Source of the DNA: Candidatus Cloacimonadota bacterium
GTDB taxonomy: Bacteria > Cloacimonadota > Cloacimonadia > Cloacimonadales > Cloacimonadaceae
Assembly (NCBI GenBank): GCA_028706475.1
Contig: JAQWBI010000002.1
Coordinates: forward strand, 19,123-83,122
DNA: 64,000 nucleotides
Reading direction: 5' to 3'
Position 1 is the stretch's first letter, and every line of letters begins with the position of its first letter. The notes below the pieces were generated by a model that was not told where the DNA came from, did not search any database, and worked only from the letters and a program-made list of their open reading frames with translations. This document shows, in pieces, positions 1,982-55,200 of the stretch. The translations under genes and the position numbers were made by a program.

Positions 1982-3534
1982 AGTCCCAGCTCCTTCTTCA
2001 TTTTGTCCATAAAGGGATTATAGTATTCCTCGTGGCGTTCAAACACTCCATCCAGGCCTTTACCGCCGTTTTCGGGGCGTTTGATTTCGGCAAAATCTCC
2101 TGCTGCCATGGCATTGAAGAGGCCTTCATCCGCCACTTTTTCCAGGAATTCCGTTGCCTGTCTTAGTACCAGATTGGCACGCTCTATTATAAAACTATCC
2201 GGACTCAATTGGATGTGTTGCCCCAAGTCTTTTACTGCTTTAAAGAGATATTGAGCGTTTTCGATGGCCAGAGAGCGATCCACCAGATGGGGAGTGTGGA
2301 TGGCTTCGGTCATCATGCCCAAAAGCTGCACGCCCTGACCCGTAAGCTGTCCAATGAAATTGAACATGGCATCCATCAGATGGGTCTTGAAGATGTTGCC
2401 GCTGGCAAACTTTGTGGGCGGCATATATTTCACAGGAGCTTTGGGGAATAGTTCGCGAGTTAGCATGGCATGCGCGAGCTCGTAGCTAAAGCTGTTCTCA
2501 AATTCCGGATCGATTTCGTGGGCATGGCCCAAACCCATCTTTTCCGGCTTAACTCCGCTTAGCAAGGCAAAGCTTTCATTCAAAAGCTGAGAGGCAGTAA
2601 CGGTATAGGCTTTCTCCACAGCGTCGGAAGTAGTGAGATAGTTGTCTTCTCCAGTTTGAATCTCGATGCCGGCAAAAGCATTGATCATGCGGGCAAAATA
2701 CTGATCCAGCAAAGTGCGTTTGGGATTGATATCACGGAAGAGGATGCCGTACATGGCGTCGTTCAGCATTAGATCCAGCCTTTCGATGGCGCCCATGGCA
2801 GCAATTTCCGGCATACACAATCCGGAAGCGTAGTTGGTCAAGCTTATATAGCGCCCCAGTTCTTCAGATACTTCATCCAAGGCCTTACGCATGATGCGGA
2901 AGTTCTCCTGAGTGGCATAAGTACCGCCGAAACCAACTGTAGTGGCGCCATAAGGCACATAGTCCAGGAGCGACTGCGCAGTCGAGCGGATCACGGCGAT
3001 GATGTCCGCACCTTCACGAGCAGCGGCTTTGGCTTGAGTTACATCCTCGTAGATATTACCGGTGGCCACGATCACGTAGATGGCAGGAACGCGGCGGGGG
3101 CCATATTTGGCAAAGAAGCCTTCTCTGGCTTGCCTTTGCGAAGCGATATGATGCAGCATCTTTGAGGATAGATCCTCCAAAATGGGATACAAGTCTTTCG
3201 CTGGAGCCATGGGCAATCCGACAAGGTCGAGCTCCCCGGATGCCACGAATTCTGCTGCCCGCTGAGCGCTGATTGCTTTATGATGCATGGCATTGGCTAT
3301 CCAAATGGCCGCCCCCTTATTTAACGCTCCGGCGTTTTGTAAGGCGTCCACTACCACATTGGGCAGAGGCTTGTCGTCTTCAGTAGCGCCGTCAATACCC
3401 AAAAGACGCAGCACTGTGCGCTCTATGGTTACAGAGCTATGAGTGTCAAAGAGTCGGCTGAAGCTTCCCGTTATCCTTGCCGCAGCAGTGCGGGCACGGG
3501 AAACCAAACCGGAATCTAACTTGAGTTCTAGCAT
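1978..3534 (-). CDS. kamD: beta-lysine (D-lysine) 5,6-aminomutase alpha subunit
   Basis: 518 aa. Long colinear similarity to remembered KamD: VTIERTVLRLLGIDG, YVIVATGNIYEDVTQA, LLDYVPYGATTVGFGGTYATQENFR, CMPEIAAMGAIERLD, GEDNYLTT. Confidence 0.85.
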   Translation of the reverse strand: MLELKLDSGLVSRARTAAARITGSFSRLFDTHSSVTIERTVLRLLGIDGATEDDKPLPNVVVDALQNAGALNKGAAIWIANAMHHKAISAQRAAEFVASGELDLVGLPMAPAKDLYPILEDLSSKMLHHIASQRQAREGFFAKYGPRRVPAIYVIVATGNIYEDVTQAKAAAREGADIIAVIRSTAQSLLDYVPYGATTVGFGGTYATQENFRIMRKALDEVSEELGRYISLTNYASGLCMPEIAAMGAIERLDLMLNDAMYGILFRDINPKRTLLDQYFARMINAFAGIEIQTGEDNYLTTSDAVEKAYTVTASQLLNESFALLSGVKPEKMGLGHAHEIDPEFENSFSYELAHAMLTRELFPKAPVKYMPPTKFASGNIFKTHLMDAMFNFIGQLTGQGVQLLGMMTEAIHTPHLVDRSLAIENAQYLFKAVKDLGQHIQLSPDSFIIERANLVLRQATEFLEKVADEGLFNAMAAGDFAEIKRPENGGKGLDGVFERHEEYYNPFMDKMKKELGL

Positions 3535-3668
3535 TTACACTCCAAATAGTGATATTTTCCTGTTTACGAGCTTTTTAAGACCCTGTTTTTGGTCAAGAAA
3601 AAAGCAAATCGGGATTTGTGCTTTCAATATCTATATAGTGGACAACACTGGGACATTTTTTGTAGTAC

Positions 3669-3698
3669 ACAAAAAGGCGGGATCCCGAAAATCCCGCC
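3669..3698 (-). terminator. intrinsic terminator downstream of fhs
   Basis: GGCGGGAT-N7-ATCCCGCC hairpin (3676-3698), followed on the minus strand by TTTTT (3671-3675). Confidence 0.6.
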
Positions 3699-3721
3699 TC
3701 AACAAAGTATGTTGATGGTAT

Positions 3722-5392
3722 CTAAAACAAACCGATGATATTGCCGTCGTGTTCTACGTTGATGGTGTTTGCGCTGGGATCTTTGGGCAGTCCCGGCATG
3801 CGCATGATCTCACCGGTGATGGGTATCAAGAATCCTGCTCCGCTTGCCACTATGATCTCGCGCACAGTAACCAGAAAGTCTTTGGGACGTCCGATCAGAT
3901 CAGGATTGTCCGACAAGGATTTCTGGGTCTTGGCGATGCAGATGGGCAATTTATCAAAACCGTGTTTATTTATCCTTTTCAGGTCATTCTTTGCTTCAGT
4001 GCTATAATCAACTTTTTCGGCTCCGTAGATCTCTTTGGCGATTGTGAAGATTTTATCCTCCACAGGGCTGTCCCATTCGTATAGGCCATGATACTTGCAC
4101 ACGTCTTTATCTACAATATCCACAACCTTTTCCGCCAGTTCGATGCCGCCTTCGCTGCCTTTGGTAAAATAGTCTACCACGCTGGCATCAGAACCCGATT
4201 TTAGCACAAAATCCTTAACGATCTGCAATTCTTCATCGGTGTCGGTGGAGAAACGGTTGATGGCGACAATCGACTTCATACCGAATTTGGTGATGTTTTC
4301 CATATGTTTCGCCAAGTTTACCAACCCATCCGAGACCGCCTTGGGATTGGGTTCATTCAGCTCTTTTACTTTCATTCCGCCATGTATCTTCAACGCACGC
4401 ACGGTGGCAACCAATACCACTGCGTTTGTGCAGAATCCACCGTACTTGCACACCAGGTCAAAGAACTTTTCCGCACCCAGATCAAATCCAAAACCGGCTT
4501 CAGTTACCACATAATCGCTCAAGCGCATGGCTGTCTTGGTGGCCAGAATACTGTTTGCGCCCTGAGCTATATTGGCAAAAGGACCGCCATGCACAAAGGC
4601 GGGAGTGTTTTCCGTGGTTTGCACCAGATTTGGCTTCAAAGCATCTTTCAAAAGCGCGGCTATCGCACCCTCAAAGCCCAATTGATGCACCTTTACCGGT
4701 TCTCCGGAGAATGAATATCCCACGGTGATATTGCCGATGCGTTCCCTTAACTCATCCAGGTTGTTCGATAGGCACAGTATCGCCATGATCTCGCTGGCAG
4801 GAGTGATGTCAAAACCATCCTCCCGCGGAAAACCTTGTTTGCTGCCACCCAAACCGATTACTATTTTACGCAGCATGCGGTCATTCACGTCCACTACACG
4901 CTTCCAGGTGATGCGACGCGGATCCAGTTGCAATTCGTTTTTGAAGTAGATGTGGTTGTCCACCAAAGCTGCCAGAGTGTTGTTTGCGGCAGTGATGGCA
5001 TGAAAATCACCGGTAAAATGAAGGTTGATGTCCTCCATCGGCAACACCTGAGACCATCCTCCACCCGCTGCACCGCCCTTCATGCCGAATACTGGACCCA
5101 GGGAAGGTTCGCGAATAGCTACAATTGATTTTTTCCCGATGCGATTGAGAGCTTGCGAAAGACCTATGGAAACTGTGGTTTTCCCCTCTCCGGCAGGTGT
5201 GGGAGTGATGGCGGAAACCAGTATGAGTTTTCCCATGGGATTGTTCTCGGCTGCAAATAAGGCGGAATAGCGTAGCTTTGCTTTATAATCACCATAGTGA
5301 TCGAGATCTTGGGGGCTGAGCCCAATTTTGGCCGCAATCTCGTCGATGGGCTTCAGTTTGGTAAGGTGTCCTATTTCTAGATCAGATAACAT
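3722..5392 (-). CDS. fhs: formate--tetrahydrofolate ligase
   Basis: 556 aa. PTPAGEGKTT P-loop and typical Fhs length, with colinear family motifs throughout. Confidence 0.95.
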   Translation of the reverse strand: MLSDLEIGHLTKLKPIDEIAAKIGLSPQDLDHYGDYKAKLRYSALFAAENNPMGKLILVSAITPTPAGEGKTTVSIGLSQALNRIGKKSIVAIREPSLGPVFGMKGGAAGGGWSQVLPMEDINLHFTGDFHAITAANNTLAALVDNHIYFKNELQLDPRRITWKRVVDVNDRMLRKIVIGLGGSKQGFPREDGFDITPASEIMAILCLSNNLDELRERIGNITVGYSFSGEPVKVHQLGFEGAIAALLKDALKPNLVQTTENTPAFVHGGPFANIAQGANSILATKTAMRLSDYVVTEAGFGFDLGAEKFFDLVCKYGGFCTNAVVLVATVRALKIHGGMKVKELNEPNPKAVSDGLVNLAKHMENITKFGMKSIVAINRFSTDTDEELQIVKDFVLKSGSDASVVDYFTKGSEGGIELAEKVVDIVDKDVCKYHGLYEWDSPVEDKIFTIAKEIYGAEKVDYSTEAKNDLKRINKHGFDKLPICIAKTQKSLSDNPDLIGRPKDFLVTVREIIVASGAGFLIPITGEIMRMPGLPKDPSANTINVEHDGNIIGLF

Positions 5393-5486
5393 GGGAGCCT
5401 CCCAGTGGATTATTTATTACTATATACAATCTAAGTGCTTCAGTAGATAATGCAAACTACAGGGACTGCCTGTTGCTGAAGCCGTG

Positions 5487-5553
5487 TCGAAGCAAATATC
5501 AAGCTGTTATCAAGCAGTGGTCACTCGATGATAACCCGATGATATCTGCTTCA
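5487..5553 (+). repeat. module A palindromic repeat, copy 1
   Basis: TCGAAGCAAATATCAAGCTGTTATCAAGCAGTG-GT-CACTCGATGATAACCCGATGATATCTGCTTCA. Imperfect inverted repeat, related to copies at 13466, 41367 and 55034. Confidence 0.85.
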
Positions 5554-5600
5554 ATACAGCTTAATGTATGGAGGATGAATAGCCCCGCAAGAGGCGGTAC

Positions 5601-13354: not shown

Positions 13355-13465
13355 CTTTCTTTTCAATCCTTTGTTGCATTTTTGGATATTGCCGCTTGGT
13401 GTCAAGGTAAAAAGGAATTTGTGGACAGGAACAAGCATCGAGACGACTCTTAAACCAAAGCTATG

Positions 13466-13531
13466 CCGAAGCTGATATAAAGGTGTTGTGATCCTGTGTT
13501 CACTCGATGATAACTCGATAATATCAGGTTC
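13466..13531 (+). repeat. module A palindromic repeat, copy 2 (left arm degenerate)
   Basis: CCGAAGCTGATATAAAGGTGTTGTGATCCTGTG-TT-CACTCGATGATAACTCGATAATATCAGGTTC. Confidence 0.8.
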
Positions 13532-13767
13532 AAGTATAGATAGCGCAGAGGAGGAAAGAAGAAGAAAACTGGCTGAACTGTGCCGGTGCTCGCTGTAGCG
13601 CTGAAATTGCATGAGTATAACATCGCTTACACATTAATAAAGGCGGAACGGCGTCCGCCTGTAATGTACTCATATACCTTTTCTTTCAGAAAAAGAACCA
13701 ACCAGACCATCGACTCAACTACGGCTTATGATCCTTTTGGATAATAATCGTGAGGCAACTGAATTGC

Positions 13768-14481: not shown

Positions 14482-15978
14482 ATGTTCTTTTTCTACCTGC
14501 TAAGCGGACTTTTCTTGGGTTGGTCGCTGGGAGCTAACGATACCGGCAACATCTTCGGTGCTGCAGTGGAAACCCGCATGCTGAAATTCAAGAAAGCTGC
14601 TCTTATTGCTGCAATCTTCATTACTTTGGGAGCAGTGTTTGAGGGCAGTGGACCATCGAATACTCTGGGCAGATTGGGCTCTATGGATGCCCTGGGCGGG
14701 GCGTTTACAGTGGCCTTGGCAGCAGCTTTGACCATTACGCTGATCGTGCGCATCGGCATTCCGGTATCTACATCTCAAACCATTGTGGGAGCGATCATCG
14801 GCTGGAATCTGTTTACGGGCAGGCTCACAGATTATTCGTCGCTCATTACCATCGCTTCATCCTGGGTGATGGCCTTTGTGCTTTCAGCGAGTATCGCCGC
14901 TATCCTGTTCCATCTGGTAAAGCCCATTATAAACAGATCGCGCACGCATTTGCTGGTACAGGATCTCATGATCCGTTATGCCCTGATCGTAGTAGGTGCA
15001 TTTGGCGCTTATTCTTTGGGGGCGAACAACATCGCGAACGTAGTGGGAGTATTTGTTCCGGTGTCTCCCTTCAAGGATCTGGTGCTGAGCAGCAAGATAA
15101 CAATCTCGGGACTGCAGCAACTATATCTTTTGGGCGCATTGTCTATAGTGGTGGGAATCTACACCTACTCTCACAAAGTGATGCGAACAGTGGGCAAGGA
15201 TCTCTTTCATCTGTCTCCGATCACAGCCTTGGTTGCTCTTAGTGCGGAAGCTATTGTGTTGTTCATTTTTGCATCCCGCGGACTCTACAATATTCTCTTG
15301 AACAGCGGCTTACCCACCATTCCTCTGGTTCCGGTATCGTCCACGCAAGTGATTGTGGGCGCTGTTGTGGGTATCGGTTTAGCCAAGGGCGGAAAAAACA
15401 TCCGTTACAACATCCTGGGGCGAATTTCTTTGGCCTGGATTGCGGCTCCGGTTTTGGCGGCGCTCATCAGCTTTATTCTGCTCTTCATCATTCAAAATGT
15501 CTTTGAACAAAAAGTGTATCAGGATACGCGCTATATATTTGATCGAAAATCTATTACCAAGATTTCTGAAGAAGGCTTCGATATTTCTTGCTTATCAACT
15601 GTGAACGGCAGGACATTTACTACTGAACGAGAGATCTACCAGGAGTTGAGTGCACAGCGCAGCCTGGGAAGAGACGAGATTATTCGCATCATCCGGTTGG
15701 CAGAGATCCATCGGTTAAAAGTGGATTATGACAAACTGATGGCAACTGGTATGGATAAAAGCTTCAGTACTGCACAACTGGCCCGCCTGGAGGCCATCAA
15801 TGAACGCACATACAATCACAAGTGGCAACTGGATGCAGATCTGGCACAAGAGCAGGAATTTGAGTATTACGAAGAAGCTGCGTCTGAGAGAGAAAAAAAC
15901 CACAACCAGATATTGGAAGGTAAACTGAATATATTGTACAGGGCTTTTGCCATAGAAGATAAAAGCAAGAAGAGATGA
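14482..15978 (+). CDS. inorganic phosphate transporter, PiT (PHO4) family, with a soluble C-terminal extension of about 160 aa
   Basis: GANDTGN at the N-terminus and GANNIANVVG in the second half are the duplicated PiT signature. TM helices end near aa 337; the rest is charged and helical. Confidence 0.85.
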   Translation: MFFFYLLSGLFLGWSLGANDTGNIFGAAVETRMLKFKKAALIAAIFITLGAVFEGSGPSNTLGRLGSMDALGGAFTVALAAALTITLIVRIGIPVSTSQTIVGAIIGWNLFTGRLTDYSSLITIASSWVMAFVLSASIAAILFHLVKPIINRSRTHLLVQDLMIRYALIVVGAFGAYSLGANNIANVVGVFVPVSPFKDLVLSSKITISGLQQLYLLGALSIVVGIYTYSHKVMRTVGKDLFHLSPITALVALSAEAIVLFIFASRGLYNILLNSGLPTIPLVPVSSTQVIVGAVVGIGLAKGGKNIRYNILGRISLAWIAAPVLAALISFILLFIIQNVFEQKVYQDTRYIFDRKSITKISEEGFDISCLSTVNGRTFTTEREIYQELSAQRSLGRDEIIRIIRLAEIHRLKVDYDKLMATGMDKSFSTAQLARLEAINERTYNHKWQLDADLAQEQEFEYYEEAASEREKNHNQILEGKLNILYRAFAIEDKSKKR

Positions 15979-16877
15979 ATCCATTTGTAGAAAAGATAGT
16001 TCCGCTGATAGTAGCATTCTTTGTGGGAGTGAGCGTCAAGAAACTGCGAATGTTGAGCAAAGATGATGCCCCCATCCTGCTTAAATTTGTATTGAACATC
16101 AGTCTGCCAGCCCTTACTATCCTGGCAATATACAATGTTCAGGTAAGTGCAGAGATGTTATTCATCCCTGTCTTTGCCATGATAGTGGTGATGGTGATGT
16201 ACATGGTATCCACTCTGGCAAACAAGGCAATGCAGCTTCCCAGACCGATGTTCGGAAGCTTTTTGGTGGGCACGATGATAATGAATACCGCCTATGCTCT
16301 ACCCCTCTTTCATGCAGCTTTTGGCGATGAGGGTCTGGCCAGGGCGTCGCTGTTTGACATCGGCAACACCTTCATGATATTCACGTTTACCTATTTTAAC
16401 GCCATCAAATATGGTGACAATGCCCATACCGACAAAATTGCCTGGGGTAAATTCCTGAAGCTTCCGCCACTCTATGCCATGCTGATTGCTTTGCTGATAA
16501 AAGTCCTGGGATTCAAACTAAATCCGGTGTCAGTGAATGTTTTGAACCTGATTGGGCAGCCAACTACAACTTTGGTAATGATTGCCTTGGGTTTGTACTT
16601 TGCACCTCGCAGAAAGAACATTGGCAAAGCATTTTTGGCGATCTTCATCCGCATGGGTTTGGGATTGGGAATCGGTTGGCTTCTGGCTTTAATCTTTGGA
16701 TTGCAAGAGCTTACCGCTACTACAGTGATCGTGTGTTCGGCACTTCCGATTGGTTTTAACACTTTGATTTTTGCGAATCTGGAGAACATGGATCGGGAGT
16801 TTGCTGCAACGATGGTGAGCTTTTCAATAATAATAGCGCTGTTTTATGTGCCATTATTGATATATTGGTTCGGTTGA
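15975..16877 (+). CDS. AEC (auxin efflux carrier) family transporter
   Basis: 300 aa, about 10 TM helices, with family-typical N- and C-terminal repeats. ATGA overlap with the PiT gene. Confidence 0.75.
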   Translation: MNPFVEKIVPLIVAFFVGVSVKKLRMLSKDDAPILLKFVLNISLPALTILAIYNVQVSAEMLFIPVFAMIVVMVMYMVSTLANKAMQLPRPMFGSFLVGTMIMNTAYALPLFHAAFGDEGLARASLFDIGNTFMIFTFTYFNAIKYGDNAHTDKIAWGKFLKLPPLYAMLIALLIKVLGFKLNPVSVNVLNLIGQPTTTLVMIALGLYFAPRRKNIGKAFLAIFIRMGLGLGIGWLLALIFGLQELTATTVIVCSALPIGFNTLIFANLENMDREFAATMVSFSIIIALFYVPLLIYWFG

Positions 16878-29228: not shown

Positions 29229-30551
29229 TCAACTTCTTACATTACTATTGAGCATCTTCCGAAGAGTATCGAGAGATCGTTGACTCATCATTTCCCGCTT
29301 CAGCTTTTTATCCCGAATACCGTTTGTAAGGGCGGGAAGGATTCCAAAGTTCGCATTTACAGGCGAGAAATTACCCTTTTCTGGAATGGTGATTAGTCGT
29401 CTCCAGAGCTGACCCATGATGCTCTCTTCCGGCAGCATGGCGAGCTGATCAGCAATGATTCTGGTAGTCCATAAACCTGAGGCAATGCACTCCACATAGC
29501 CTTCCACTCCGCTTAGTTGCCCTGCAATCCATACATCTGGTCGCGCTTTCAAGCTGAGATCGGGATTCAGTATCTTAGGCGAATTCAGATAGGAATTGCG
29601 GTGAATGGAGCCATAGCGCAGGAAGGACGCATGTTGCAAACCCGGGATCAACCTGAAAATGCGCTTCTGTTCCGGGTAGCGCAGCATGGTTTGACATCCC
29701 ACCAGATTGTAGGCTGTGAAGTCCTTGTTCTCTGCTCTTAGCTGCAATACAGCGTAGGCTTTATCTCCTGTGGCGGGATCTTCCAGACCCATGGGACGCA
29801 TCACACCATGACGCAGTGTGTCCTTCCCTCTTCGGGCAAGCTCTTCGATTGGCATGCAGTTCTCATAGAAGCTGAATTTTTCGCCATTGAAGAATTCGTT
29901 TTCAAATTCATGAGCTTCGTGTTTTTCAGCAGCCAAAAGAGCGTTTACAAAATCCAGGTATTGTTCTTTGTTAAAAGCGCAATTCAGATAGTCGGCTTCC
30001 CCTTTGTCATAGCGAGCTTTGGCATATACTGTGTCCATATCGATGGAATCAGCATCAATGATTGGGGCAATGGCATCGAAGAAGAAGAGCTGATCTTCTC
30101 CAAGAAGGCTTTGCAGATGGCGCATCATAGCGTTTGATGTAAGCGGTCCTGTTGCCACAATTACCTTGCCGGAGGGAAGCTCGGTTGCTTCCTCACGGAT
30201 AATATGGATATTGGGTTCGCTTTCAATGCGCCTTGTAACGTTTTGAGCAAAGAGTTCGCGATCTACAGCAAGGGCGTGTCCGGCGGGGACCTTGGATTGC
30301 TTTGCAATCTCAAGCAGGATGGATCCCATCAGGTGTAATTCCTCTTTCAGGAGACCGGCTCCGGTGTCCAATCGCACGGATTTCAGGCTGTTGCTGCATA
30401 CCAATTCGGCAAACAAATCTCCGGTATGGGCTTCCGTTCTCTGCTTGGGACGCATTTCAATCAGGCGTACATCAAAGCCACTGGCCGCCAGTTGTAATGC
30501 GGCTTCCGAGCCTGCCAAACCAGCTCCGATGATGCTAATGGATTGACTCAC
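29229..30551 (-). CDS. trmFO: methylenetetrahydrofolate--tRNA-(uracil54-C5)-methyltransferase TrmFO
   Basis: 440 aa. IIGAGLAGSEAA FAD motif, ELVCSNS, and colinear with the TrmFO/Gid family. Confidence 0.9.
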   Translation of the reverse strand: MSQSISIIGAGLAGSEAALQLAASGFDVRLIEMRPKQRTEAHTGDLFAELVCSNSLKSVRLDTGAGLLKEELHLMGSILLEIAKQSKVPAGHALAVDRELFAQNVTRRIESEPNIHIIREEATELPSGKVIVATGPLTSNAMMRHLQSLLGEDQLFFFDAIAPIIDADSIDMDTVYAKARYDKGEADYLNCAFNKEQYLDFVNALLAAEKHEAHEFENEFFNGEKFSFYENCMPIEELARRGKDTLRHGVMRPMGLEDPATGDKAYAVLQLRAENKDFTAYNLVGCQTMLRYPEQKRIFRLIPGLQHASFLRYGSIHRNSYLNSPKILNPDLSLKARPDVWIAGQLSGVEGYVECIASGLWTTRIIADQLAMLPEESIMGQLWRRLITIPEKGNFSPVNANFGILPALTNGIRDKKLKREMMSQRSLDTLRKMLNSNVRS

Positions 30552-36900: not shown

Positions 36901-38219
36901 ATTCTTTCAAGAACGGCAAGGCTCTCGATGTGCCAGGTGTTTGGAAACATATCGAAGCCGCCAAGATTCAACAACTTATACTTTCCGTCTTGCAACAATA
37001 TCCGGAGGTCTCTCGCCAGACTCATCGGCGAGCAACTGAGATATATGATGCGGGGGATACCGGCTCTTTTGATCGACCATAGCGTGCTTTCCGGAACACC
37101 GCTGCGGGGAGGATCCAGAATGATGCAATCGGCTTCGAAGCTTCGGATAGATTCATCAAACTTCTGTTCGAATTTACCGCAGATGTACTGAACTTTGTCA
37201 AAACCGTTGTTCTCGGCGTTCCTTTTGGCATCACGGATAGCTTCCGGGCTTTCTTCGATACCCAATACTTGCGCAATCTCACTTGCCAAACCCAAGCCAA
37301 TGGCACCCATGCCGCAATATGCATCAATTACTTTGTAATGCGGCTTCATCCAGGCTCTCATGGCACACAGTATCTTTTCCATGCTGCCGCTGTTGATCTG
37401 CCAAAAGCTGCGGTAATTGATCTCAAAGCGGATATCCGCAAGAGTGTCGCAGAGATAGCTTTTGCCATACAAAAGCTTTTCTTCTTGGCCCAGGATCACA
37501 TTGCCGCGGTCGCGATTGATGTTTTGCACAATGCCGGTAACCATGGGGAAGGCGTCGGTGATGCCTCTCACGATGGTTTTCGAGAATGGTAAGCGTGCCG
37601 AACGGCATACCAGAATAAGCAAAATTTCACTTTGGTCTTTGTTGCAGCGTAAGCCGATGTGGCGCAAACAACCGCTGTGATCCTGCTCGTTATAGGGTTC
37701 TACCTTTGCCTTTTCGCACAGCTGATACAGTGTCTTGGCAATATCGTCGAAAACGGGGGGATGGTTCAAACAGCTTTCATGCTTTACTATGCTGTGGCTG
37801 TATCGCGCATAAATGCCATAGGATTCTGCGCCTACGGGCATAAATACTTTGTTTCGGTAATTACGTTGAAGCTCCGAAGCCTCCATCCCGCTGTACACTT
37901 CCAGGTGATCTTTGAAGAGGTCTCGCAACAGCATATCCTTGTATTGCAACTGAGTGGGATAATCCAACATCAGCCAATCGCAGCCCCCGCAGGGTTCCGA
38001 TGCATCAAAAGCACTACAGCCGGAAGGGATAACTCCAGCACCTCGTTCATGATACTGTGTCACTTTAGCAAAGGCATGATCTTTCTTGTCCAGAAAGATC
38101 TGCACATCCACATTATCGCCAATGGCAGTATTGGCCACAAAGATCGCTTTACCACCATGAAATCCCAGTCCCATGCCACCCATGGCTATCTTCTCTATGT
38201 TTAGTTTTTCGATAATCAC
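36897..38219 (-). CDS. 23S rRNA (uracil-C5)-methyltransferase, RlmD/RumA family
   Basis: 440 aa. N-terminal TRAM-like domain, Cys cluster (CSAFDASEPCGGCDW), SAM motif DAYCGMG and the catalytic-Cys region YLSCSP. Confidence 0.85.
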   Translation of the reverse strand: MIIEKLNIEKIAMGGMGLGFHGGKAIFVANTAIGDNVDVQIFLDKKDHAFAKVTQYHERGAGVIPSGCSAFDASEPCGGCDWLMLDYPTQLQYKDMLLRDLFKDHLEVYSGMEASELQRNYRNKVFMPVGAESYGIYARYSHSIVKHESCLNHPPVFDDIAKTLYQLCEKAKVEPYNEQDHSGCLRHIGLRCNKDQSEILLILVCRSARLPFSKTIVRGITDAFPMVTGIVQNINRDRGNVILGQEEKLLYGKSYLCDTLADIRFEINYRSFWQINSGSMEKILCAMRAWMKPHYKVIDAYCGMGAIGLGLASEIAQVLGIEESPEAIRDAKRNAENNGFDKVQYICGKFEQKFDESIRSFEADCIILDPPRSGVPESTLWSIKRAGIPRIIYLSCSPMSLARDLRILLQDGKYKLLNLGGFDMFPNTWHIESLAVLERI

Positions 38220-40994: not shown

Positions 40995-41366
40995 GTATTG
41001 TTTGCCTGCCAGTAGTGTTCCCTTTGCTCCGGGTATCGGGGAAGAAAAAGCACACATGATATACGCGATCCATGACAGAGATAGAACAAGCTGGAATTGT
41101 GGATTGCCAATAAAGGATAAACCCTGACTGGAATGGTGAGTTGTAATATTGAAGTAATCAAATATTATTGAGGCTAGATGGTGTGTCAATCTTTTGCGCA
41201 TCGAGGCGGTATGTTTCATATTTATCGATTATGCTATACAAAACAATGGAGCATGGGATGATCCCACGCTTCCCAATCCCTTTTGCTTATCGACGAGCAT
41301 AAAGGGCAACATGTCCCCCGGTAAACCGGAATATGCTGGAGTCACTATCCACCCTCTTCGCGTAAA

Positions 41367-41446
41367 GCAGTGCCGAAGCAGATATAATCGGGTTATCATC
41401 GAGTGGTCACTGCTTGATAACGGCTTTATATCTGCTTCGGCACTGC
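41367..41446 (-). repeat. module A palindromic repeat, copy 3 (longest; polarity inverted relative to copies 1, 2 and 4)
   Basis: GCAGTGCCGAAGCAGATATAATCGGGTTATCATCGAGTG-GT-CACTGCTTGATAACGGCTTTATATCTGCTTCGGCACTGC. The outer 20 bp pair perfectly. Confidence 0.85.
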
Positions 41447-41545
41447 TTGAAGCAGGGAGGAGGAATAGCACTCAGATGAAGCATATCAAATGGATTTACA
41501 CTGATTTTATGTTTGTAACATGTGAAAGTACAATTATTGCCTCCG

Positions 41546-41588
41546 TAGTGTGGAAACGGCATCTTGCCGTTTTGTTACCCCCACACAC
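41546..41588 (+). repeat. module B, copy 3
   Basis: TAGTGTGGAAACGGCATCTTGCCGTTTTGTTACCCCCACACAC. The first 24 nt are identical to the unit at 5601. Confidence 0.85.
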
Positions 41589-54907: not shown

Positions 54908-55033
54908 AAGTAAGTATTTTCTACCTTGAATTTATGCATGATTTATTCCATTTATAGGAGATTAATCCTTTTGAGTAGTGTTATCATTAGCGCGGTAGAG
55001 CGCATATTCACACCTTGTGGATTATCTCATGTT

Positions 55034-55097
55034 GAACGGGATATAAAGTCGCTATCATCGAGTGGGCACTGGATGATAACCTGATAATATCCGCTTC
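55034..55097 (+). repeat. module A palindromic repeat, copy 4
   Basis: GAACGGGATATAAAGTCGCTATCATCGAGTG-GG-CACTGGATGATAACCTGATAATATCCGCTTC. Confidence 0.8.
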
Positions 55098-55200
55098 GCC
55101 ATAGCTGAACCTTGAGGTAGAGCATAGTCTTGAGGATTGTTGATGGTACACAGATCACGCAGATTGTTTTATTCATGGAATGTGTGGTCCTCTTCAAACC

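What the first reader, a model, noticed from the sequence alone, without database searches (positions are those of the whole stretch)
41367..41446. Module A has polarity: a conserved internal mismatch, and a flipped copy at 41.4 kb
In copy 1 the loop-proximal arms read ...TATCAAGCAGTG / CACTCGATGATA..., giving three unpaired positions (AGC opposite CGA). In copy 3 they read ...TATCATCGAGTG / CACTGCTTGATA..., with TCG opposite GCT. The same three-position mismatch is kept but the arm identities are swapped. The top strand of copy 3 therefore corresponds to the bottom strand of copy 1, apart from the central GT. Downstream modules (purine-rich box, module B) keep the same plus-strand orientation at both loci. 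A retained mismatch argues against selection purely for a perfect hairpin. The arm swap suggests the core can sit in either orientation within its context, either by independent insertion or by inversion between the perfect outer repeats GAAGCAGATAT/ATATCTGCTTC.
Basis: seen in the sequence. Interest (0 to 1): 0.6.

Follow-up and report, generated by a model that had tools for sequence, protein, structure and literature searches.

The report
Polar palindromic repeat, opposite orientation copy
The hairpin at 41.4 kb is one of about 138 copies of a small non-coding palindromic repeat of an uncultured Cloacimonadota bacterium. Its two arms are reliably different, so it has a direction, and this copy simply lies the other way round from the 5.5-kb copy; I found no sign of an active flipping switch.

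Summary
Copy 3 (core 41392-41421) reads TCG/GCT where copy 1 (core 5506-5535) reads AGC/CGA, and copy 3 matches the reverse complement of copy 1 better than copy 1 itself (81% vs 73%).

The polarity is a family property. Of 138 copies in this 2.06-Mb genome, 120 have exactly one 'X' arm (TCG); independent arms would give 69. The sister species UBA5284 also keeps the TCG/AGC pairing.

The 'fixed context' argument fails:
- The purine-rich box is the right terminal inverted repeat of the palindrome. Every copy is CT-rich on the left and AG-rich on the right, in either orientation.
- Module B is a separate repeat with no fixed relation to the arms.

Nothing points to active inversion:
- Sequence outside the proposed crossover sites stays linked to the X arm (41:0 and 18:5).
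- Thirteen locus-by-assembly comparisons show no flip.
- No serine invertase gene was found, and there is no promoter-like site inside the element.

Copies are old: 14-16 of 20 UBA5284 copies lie in gaps syntenic with a copy here. Among these pairs, 7 have the same polarity, 3 are opposite and 2 are mosaic, so slow arm swapping or re-insertion cannot be excluded.

This scan had already noted the family (e1-2961708). What is new here is the polarity, its conservation across species, and the turnover of the inner arms at conserved positions.

The parts
41343..41359 (.). CT-rich left terminus of the palindrome (CACTATCCACCCTCTTC), the mirror image of the purine box
   Evidence: Consensus of 136 copies is CT-rich on the left and AG-rich on the right. 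It pairs with 41452-41466 in the fold.
41363..41385 (.). Left outer arm TAAAGCAGTGCCGAAGCAGATAT, including the 'perfect outer repeat' GAAGCAGATAT
   Evidence: I4: arms 41345-41405 and 41408-41468.
41386..41391 (.). Left spacer AATCGG, X type. Opposite GGCTTT it forms the outer 4x4 internal loop.
41392..41405 (.). Inner X arm GTTATCATCGAGTG (TCG at 41399-41401)
   Evidence: 120 of 138 copies have exactly one such arm.
41406..41407 (.). Central loop dinucleotide GT, a minority state. With the X arm on the left, the first base is A in 103 of 120 copies (AG, AC, AA or AT) and the pair is GT in only 6.
41408..41421 (.). Inner Y arm CACTGCTTGATAAC (GCT at 41412-41414, which is AGC on the other strand)
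   Evidence: 34 copies are of the X-AGC type.
41422..41427 (.). Right spacer GGCTTT, Y type (AAAGCC on the other strand)
41428..41449 (.). Right outer arm ATATCTGCTTCGGCACTGCTTG
41449..41471 (.).
   Evidence: it is part of the palindrome, 35 nt from the core.
41546..41582 (+). Module B, an independent small hairpin repeat that is not part of the element
   Evidence: D2; 15 copies genome-wide, with no fixed relation to the arms of module A.
5479..5583 (.). Copy 1 (core 5506-5535), in opposite polarity: Y arm on the left, X arm on the right
13458..13562 (.). Copy 2 (core 13485-13514): TCC arm on the left, X arm on the right
55024..55128 (.). Copy 4 (core 55051-55080): X arm on the left, TCC arm on the right

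Best explanation
The 41.4-kb palindrome is one copy of a lineage-restricted, non-coding, dispersed palindromic repeat of about 125-150 nt in a Cloacimonadota genome. The family is built on a skeleton of short, dyad-symmetric blocks spaced 11 bp apart: GAAG, GATAT, N6, GTTAT, N6, GTG, NN, CAC, N6, ATAAC, N6, ATATC, CTTC. The segments between the blocks differ between the two arms. One arm is 'X' (CATCGG ... CATCGA). The other is a non-X arm (AAAGCC ... CAAGCA, or the TCC, TGC and TCT variants). The element is therefore polar, and as a hairpin it carries two internal loops of like-with-like mismatches. Each locus holds the element in one fixed orientation. Across loci the orientation is random. 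Copy 3 is simply the element in the opposite orientation from copy 1. Because the outer arms and the CT/AG-rich termini are themselves palindromic, they look the same either way, which gave the impression of a flipped core in a fixed context.

Shown: copy number, polarity, symmetry of the termini, linkage of outer and inner arm types, random orientation, fixity across assemblies, conservation of the polarity in a second species, and shared positions between species.

Inferred: the two arms are kept different because whatever protein copies or maintains the element treats them as different ends or strands, much as transposon left and right ends, or folded single-stranded recognition sites, are treated differently. 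The element is selfish or relic mobile DNA and not a regulator.
For: - Copy number: 138 copies found by a core pattern and 135 by a skeleton pattern with 0 in the reversed control.
- Polarity: exactly one TCG arm in 120 of 138 copies against 69 expected if arms were independent (chi-square 76, p 3e-18).
- Orientation: X-left 62, X-right 58 on the contig strand. No bias relative to transcription, 23 against 26. Copies occur in all four kinds of intergenic junction.
- Termini: CT-rich left and AG-rich right in all copies.
- Linkage: outer type 'atcgatacttgaac' goes 41:0 with the X arm, and 'cttgatatgaag' 18:5. This linkage spans the proposed crossover sites.
- Mismatch positions are conserved and anti-correlated.
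- The sister species G007 (UBA5284) has 25 copies. Of the 17 listed, 11 pair a TC[G/T] arm with an AG[C/T] arm.
- The SNF2 and FTHFS loci of G007 and G004 lack the element, and empty sites exist in G008 and G018 at the nitroreductase-xseA gap. So the element is gained and lost.
- Copies 1, 3 and 4 are base-for-base identical in 3, 5 and 5 other assemblies.
- No Resolvase-family gene and only two Xer-like tyrosine recombinases are present. No promoter-like site lies inside the element.
Against: - No mobilising enzyme is identified.
- Plain copies show no target-site duplication.
- Conservation is highest in the centre and fades outward, unlike classic MITEs.
- 14-16 of 20 G007 copies, and 4 of 5 mappable copies of the related G009 family, lie in gaps syntenic with a copy here. 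The copies are therefore old and positionally stable, yet their inner arms are species-specific. That is easier to explain by homogenisation or a host function than by simple transposition.
- Among syntenic G000/G007 pairs, 3 of 12 have opposite polarity and 2 are mosaic, so some in-place swapping may occur.
Confidence: 0.72

Rival explanations
1. Slow in-place arm swapping. On evolutionary time the asymmetric interior is reversed at a locus. This could happen by recombination or template switching between the element's own inverted outer arms. It could also happen by gene conversion from another copy, which can align in either orientation because the outer arms are palindromic. Copy 3's orientation, and its odd central GT, would be the product of such an event and not of the insertion orientation.
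For: - Among 12 informative syntenic G000/G007 pairs, 3 have opposite polarity and 2 are mosaics of X-type and Y-type segments.
- One copy (C51:159371) has subfamily flanks but converted spacer and arm segments.
- The central dinucleotide occurs mainly as AC and, less often, as its reverse complement GT within the X-AGC subfamily.
- Inner arms are species-specific at conserved positions, which needs some form of homogenisation.
Against: - Flanks of the flipped pairs do not align, so identical insertion points are not shown. Independent insertions into the same permissive gaps would give the same picture.
- 7 same against 3 flipped does not differ from 50:50 (p 0.34).
- Linkage of 41:0 in the youngest subfamily shows that swapping is rare.
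Confidence: 0.15
2. Active invertible switch (inverton). A site-specific recombinase flips the 41386-41427 segment between the perfect repeats GAAGCAGATAT/ATATCTGCTTC within the living population, and both states coexist.
For: Perfect 11-bp (in fact 23-bp) inverted repeats bracket an asymmetric segment. Both polarities exist in the genome.
Against: - No Resolvase-family gene; only two Xer-like tyrosine recombinases.
- No promoter-like site inside the segment.
- 13 locus-by-assembly comparisons show no flip.
- Outer and inner arm linkage is 41:0.
- With 138 copies and no orientation bias toward genes, a regulatory switch would be pointless.
Confidence: 0.04
3. Host-used protein-binding array. 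The 11-bp phased blocks are sites for a chromosome-organising or DNA-bending protein. The X and non-X arms would be two classes of half-site. The copies would be kept at conserved intergenic positions by selection and would co-evolve with the protein.
For: - 11-bp phasing of GATAT/GTTAT blocks on both arms.
- Skeleton blocks are conserved while the flanks have diverged beyond alignment at syntenic loci.
- Positions are shared among three species, with species-specific inner arms.
- From my own knowledge, untested here: the Y-arm segment TATCAAGCTGTTA in copy 1 matches the enterobacterial IHF consensus WATCAANNNNTTR.
Against: - The family was found in only 3 of 121 genomes of the order by skeleton pattern, so it cannot be a conserved host system in this form.
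- It is present at some loci and absent at the orthologous loci of close relatives.
- One subfamily of about 45 copies has clearly spread as part of a ~280-nt element with terminal inverted repeats.
- No candidate protein is known.
Confidence: 0.15
4. RNA-level element. When transcribed, the long hairpin with two internal loops is a processing or stabilising site, for example for a double-strand-specific ribonuclease, and the loops set cleavage specificity.
For: A very stable hairpin forms on both strands. The element is strictly intergenic. Known parallels are the Correia elements of Neisseria and ERIC (PMC2649163, PMC2229807).
Against: - No orientation bias relative to transcription (23:26).
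- Many copies sit between divergent genes, where they need not be transcribed.
- There are few compensatory changes in the stems.
- No Rfam match.
- No RNA data could be consulted.
Confidence: 0.08

Closest known systems
ERIC / IRU elements of Enterobacteria and Vibrio (about 127-bp imperfect palindromes)
   Same: Similar size. An imperfect palindrome whose centre is the best-conserved part. Strictly intergenic. Found in either orientation. No transposase of its own and no clear target duplication. The mechanism of spread is unknown.
   Different: No sequence similarity and no Rfam match. A different phylum. The family here is restricted to two or three species of one genus. It has an explicit 11-bp block structure and a conserved two-arm identity, which I did not test against ERIC.
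Correia repeat enclosed elements (CREE/NEMIS) of Neisseria (PMC2649163, PMC2229807)
   Same: Elements of roughly 100-150 bp in hundreds of copies in a ~2-Mb genome. Left and right inverted repeats come in variant types, so each element has a polarity. They form long hairpins.
   Different: From my own knowledge, Correia elements have sharp 26-bp terminal repeats and a TA target duplication. Plain module A copies have fuzzy ends and no detectable duplication. Functional promoters, IHF binding or RNase III processing are not shown here.
REPIN-RAYT systems (10.1101/2021.07.10.451892; PMC8049555)
   Same: Extragenic hairpin-forming repeats of about 100 nt. They persist vertically at orthologous positions, with a lineage-specific sequence. 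The genome holds a single-copy Y1 (HUH) transposase-like gene.
   Different: A REPIN is two short palindromic REPs separated by a variable spacer. Here the centre is the most conserved part and the arms are not themselves palindromes. The one Y1_Tnp gene (G000:C9:189-839) is flanked by a different hairpin repeat and not by module A.
Miniature inverted-repeat transposable elements derived from insertion sequences (PMC10969869)
   Same: Small, non-coding and palindromic, with presence/absence differences between relatives. The X-TCC subfamily sits inside a ~280-nt unit with the terminal repeats CTAGTGACTCGTCAAGG.../...CTTGACATGACACTAG. The termini of module A (CATTC followed by a C-rich run) loosely resemble the ends GGCATTCCCCCA of an IS4-like element of the same genus.
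   Different: No target duplication for plain copies. The resemblance to the IS ends is short and was not tested statistically. No DDE_3 (IS630-type) transposase was found for the CTAG-ended unit.

Membership tests
Invertible DNA switch (inverton) | Inverted repeats bracketing the segment | tested here: met
   GAAGCAGATAT at 41375-41385 and its complement at 41428-41438.
Invertible DNA switch (inverton) | Both orientations present at one locus in a population | tested here: not met
   Copies 1, 3 and 4 are identical in 3, 5 and 5 other assemblies.
Invertible DNA switch (inverton) | A dedicated invertase (serine or tyrosine recombinase) | tested here: not met
   No PF00239 match. Only two Xer-like PF00589 genes in a 96.8%-complete genome.
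Invertible DNA switch (inverton) | A promoter or coding part inside the segment, so that orientation matters | tested here: not met
   No promoter-like site within 41345-41469. No orientation bias toward genes.
MITE | Terminal inverted repeats with sharp ends | tested here: inconclusive
   CT-rich and AG-rich termini are inverted repeats, but information content fades gradually. Sharp ends are seen only in the ~280-nt X-TCC unit.
MITE | Target-site duplication | tested here: not met
   No enrichment of 2-5-nt direct repeats at any boundary, nor of repeats of 8 nt or more over shuffled controls, in 74-76 plain copies.
MITE | A parent insertion sequence with matching ends in the same or related genomes | tested here: inconclusive
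   An IS4-like element with ends GGCATTCCCCCA is present in G000 and in 15 of 24 genomes of the genus. Its likeness to the module A termini is short.
REPIN-RAYT | Two short palindromic REPs in inverted orientation with a variable spacer | tested here: not met
   The centre is the most conserved part, and the arms are direct 11-nt repeats, not palindromes.
REPIN-RAYT | A single-copy RAYT gene flanked by the same repeat | tested here: not met
   The one Y1_Tnp gene is flanked by ..CCTCGTGCCTCTGGCACG.. hairpins, not by module A.
REPIN-RAYT | Extragenic location and vertical persistence at orthologous positions | tested here: met
ERIC-like intergenic palindromes | An imperfect palindrome of about 100-130 nt with a conserved centre, intergenic, in both orientations | tested here: met
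ERIC-like intergenic palindromes | Sequence homology to the ERIC consensus | not tested
   No ERIC sequence was compared. There was no Rfam hit at a permissive threshold.

The most novel reading that the evidence does not exclude
The genus carries long-lived palindromic elements fixed at conserved intergenic positions. Their inner arms are replaced in concert in each species (the A type in G000 and G007, a different inner arm in G009), while a block of like-with-like mismatches is kept each time. That would point to an unidentified structure-specific protein, neither a RAYT nor a known transposase. This protein would read the folded, bubble-bearing strand, tell top from bottom, and copy or homogenise the elements. 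The polarity seen at 41.4 kb would be its recognition mark.
Probability: 0.15. Interest if true: 0.6.

Novelty: new member of a known kind. Interest (0 to 1): 0.3.

Why it matters
The finding explains an apparent 'flipped core' as an ordinary consequence of a polar element with palindromic ends, and so removes a candidate phase-variation switch. It also documents that this Cloacimonadota repeat family keeps two different arms across species. It shows too that copies stay at the same intergenic positions while their inner sequence changes by species. If that pattern is general, these repeats are closer to the long-persisting REPIN type of genome resident than to short-lived transposon debris, and the enzyme responsible is still unknown. 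On the practical side, the repeats break assemblies: many copies lie at contig ends.

Tried and rejected
- Divergent-promoter operator: rejected. Genome-wide the copies lie in ++ (34), -- (24), -+ (21) and +- (17) junctions.
- Rfam at gathering and permissive thresholds: nothing relevant.
- Literature searches on Cloacimonas/Cloacimonadota repeats: nothing.
- A metagenome scan with a 20-mer from the unique left flank returned only two unrelated chance matches.
- Aligning the SNF2 and FTHFS intergenic regions with G007 and G004 to find exact empty sites: the flanks were too diverged.
- Direct against reversed identity at the nitroreductase-xseA orthologous pair: a tie, 76 against 77 of 134.
- Target-site duplications: none.
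- IS630-type transposase for the CTAG-ended unit: none found.
- Multi-copy protein families in the assembly: none apart from fragments.
- 'Core-less' outer palindromes in G000 that could be empty targets for a nested core insertion: none.
- The PhoU-like protein beside copy 2 was not on record in other assemblies.

Full report
**What is there.** The finding's sequence is as described. Window 41392-41421 reads GTTATCA-TCG-AGTG-GT-CACT-GCT-TGATAAC. It is flanked by the spacers AATCGG and GGCTTT and by the perfect repeats GAAGCAGATAT and ATATCTGCTTC. The 5.5-kb copy reads GTTATCA-AGC-AGTG-GT-CACT-CGA-TGATAAC with spacers CAAGCT and CCGATG. The repeat finder gives 73% identity between the two copies read directly and 81% as reverse complement. 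So the whole asymmetric interior, and not only the triplets, is reversed; the central GT is the one exception. Both strands of copy 3 fold into one long hairpin with a 4x4 and a 3x3 internal loop (z about -9 to -11).

**It is a genome-wide family.** The window is part of contig C43 of a 2.06-Mb, 90-contig genome that is 96.8% complete.
- A core pattern finds 138 copies. A skeleton pattern, GATAT-N6-GTTAT-N6-GTG-NN-CAC-N6-ATAAC-N6-ATATC, finds 135, with none for the reversed control.
- The organism is a Cloacimonadota bacterium. A neighbouring protein has a type IX secretion sorting tail. The only named genome sharing the repeat is 'Cloacimonetes bacterium UBA5284', which is G007.
- Among 121 genomes of the order, the skeleton occurs only in G000 (135 copies), G007 (25) and G008 (1). 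BLAST adds weak copies in G004.
- The copies are intergenic but not tied to divergent promoters: they lie in ++ (34), -- (24), -+ (21) and +- (17) junctions.
- An earlier follow-up in this scan (e1-2961708) had already reached the 'dispersed repeat' conclusion. I re-derived it independently here.

**Polarity is real and is a family trait.**
- Of 138 copies, 120 have exactly one arm with TCG ('X'), 12 have two and 6 have none. Independent arms would give 69, 38 and 32 (chi-square 76).
- The partner arm falls into discrete classes: TCC (62 copies), AGC (34), TGC (12) and TCT (7).
- The spacer one helical turn further out differs in the same way: X has CATCGG, non-X has AAAGCC, CAAGCC or CAAGGT.
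- Aligned with X on the left, position 6 from the centre is G.G in 111 of 137 copies, position 18 is C.C in 105 and position 19 is T.T in 102. Watson-Crick pairing at these positions is rarer than independent columns predict.
- The stems between them (GTG/CAC, GTTATCA/TGATAAC, GATAT/ATATC, GAAG/CTTC) pair in 85-99% of copies at most positions.
- In G007, 11 of the 17 listed copies pair a TC[G/T] arm with an AG[C/T] arm.

**Why the 'fixed context' argument fails.** Averaged over 136 copies as they lie on the contigs, the left flank is pyrimidine-rich (..ttctt.CcCT.tg..) and the right flank is its complement (..cA.AGgGgaagaa..). The purine box is thus the right terminal inverted repeat of a palindrome about 125-150 nt long. 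It appears downstream on the + strand of every copy, whichever way the core points. Its best-preserved form, GAGGATGAATAGCAC, sits 35 nt from the core in 23 of 25 matches and 33 nt in the other two. It is found next to AGC arms (9 of 35), next to TCG arms (8 of 144) and once on both sides. Module B has only 15 copies genome-wide. Near module A it occurs beside either arm and in both orientations.

**Is the core flipping?** Four lines of evidence say not at any appreciable rate.
1. The 15 nt just outside them come in types that are tightly linked to the inner arm: 'atcgatacttgaac' goes 41:0 with X, and 'cttgatatgaag' 18:5. Recurrent inversion would scramble this linkage.
2. Other assemblies from other samples carry exactly the same sequence as the window: 5 for copy 3, 3 for copy 1 and 5 for copy 4, with no flip and no substitution.
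3. The genome has no serine recombinase and only two Xer-like tyrosine recombinases.
4. No promoter-like site lies inside the element. The element's orientation is unrelated to the direction of flanking genes, 23 against 26, and is even on the contig strand, 62 against 58.

The central GT is a hairpin-loop position. With X on the left, the first base is A in 103 of 120 copies, and GT is a minority state found in 6 copies.

**Age and turnover.** I did not expect that 14-16 of 20 G007 copies would lie in intergenic gaps syntenic with a G000 copy. The binomial p is 8e-12 against 138 in 1770 gaps, and 1e-5 against a stricter 138 in 600.
- At the nitroreductase-xseA gap, the element starts within about 10 nt of the stop codon in G000, G007 and G009, while G008 and G018 have an empty 20-nt gap.
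- G009's element shares the outer ~24 nt (TCCCC.TTGC.CAAAGCAGTGCCGA) with module A but has a different, shorter inner arm. It belongs to a G009-specific family of about 25 copies.
- 4 of 5 mappable G009 copies are syntenic with a module A copy in G000.
- G009's consensus also carries an asymmetric block, GTGCCG opposite ATCGCC (my reading of nine copies).

The positions are therefore old, while the inner arms are species-specific. This implies homogenisation or replacement within each genome. Among 12 informative G000/G007 syntenic pairs, 7 share polarity, 3 are opposite and 2 are mosaics. The flanks of the opposite pairs do not align, so in-place swapping and separate insertions cannot be told apart. 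No 'core-less' outer palindromes remain in G000.

**How it spreads.** This is unresolved.
- Plain copies have no target duplication.
- About 45 X-TCC copies form the centre of a ~280-nt unit ending in CTAGTGACTCGTCAAGG... and ...CTTGACATGACACTAG. These ends look like those of a CTAG-targeting element (my inference), but no DDE_3 transposase is present.
- The single Y1_Tnp (RAYT-like) gene is flanked by a different hairpin repeat.
- An IS4-like element with ends GGCATTCCCCCA occurs in G000, broken at contig ends, and in 15 of 24 genomes of the genus. Its ends loosely resemble module A's CATTC-plus-C-rich termini. This is a lead and nothing more.

**Comparison with known kinds.** In form the element is closest to ERIC-type intergenic palindromes, and, in having two arm types, to Correia elements. 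In persistence it resembles REPINs, but it fails the REPIN definition: a REPIN is two palindromic REPs around a variable spacer, with a RAYT flanked by the same repeat (10.1101/2021.07.10.451892). It also fails three of four inverton criteria.

**Verdict.** The 'flip within a fixed context' is an artefact of palindromic termini, and active inversion is not supported. This is a new member of a familiar class of bacterial repeats. It has one moderately interesting trait, conserved arm asymmetry with species-specific inner arms at conserved positions, whose mechanism is unknown.

Noticed in passing
G000:C9:189-839 (locus L041), outside the window: A single 216-aa Y1_Tnp (RAYT-like) gene is bracketed by inverted copies of a different hairpin repeat (..CCTCGTGCCTCTGGCACG..). 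This looks like a separate REP/RAYT-type system in the same genome.
   Followed up: partly
L100 (G013:C1:329500-333800), 2497-4205; G000 contigs C40 start, C16 end, C28 start, C87:15980-16192: An IS4-like insertion sequence (432-aa transposase, ends GGCATTCCCCCAAAA / AAATGGGGGAATGCC, 10-12-bp target duplications) occurs in 15 of 24 genomes of the genus. In seven copies from six species its right end lies 13-15 nt upstream of a TTGACA hexamer, which suggests insertion just upstream of promoters.
   Followed up: partly
L085/L089 (G009:C8, about 38118-38211) and L091-L099: G009 has its own palindromic family of about 90 nt and about 25 copies. It shares the outer ~24 nt with module A but has a different inner arm. 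4 of 5 mappable copies are syntenic with module A copies of G000.
   Followed up: partly
genome-wide, e.g. G000:C90:47064-47340; about 45 copies: The X-TCC subfamily is the centre of a ~280-nt unit ending in CTAGTGACTCGTCAAGG... and ...CTTGACATGACACTAG. Module B (CTAGTGTGGAAACGG...) resembles this unit's left end.
   Followed up: partly
window 41074-41110: Two other assemblies (L051, L052) differ completely from the window to the left of 41110 while being identical to its right. The break is next to a short repeat (41117-41152) that recurs at 29370 and 51480. This is either a structural variant or an assembly join at a repeat.
   Followed up: no
G000:C15, about 15858-16529: One of the two Xer-like tyrosine recombinase genes has a module A copy (core at C15:16500) about 100 nt downstream. 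With 138 copies this may well be chance.
   Followed up: no
window 5500-5512: The Y-arm segment TATCAAGCTGTTA of copy 1 matches the enterobacterial IHF consensus WATCAANNNNTTR (from my own knowledge; not tested).
   Followed up: no
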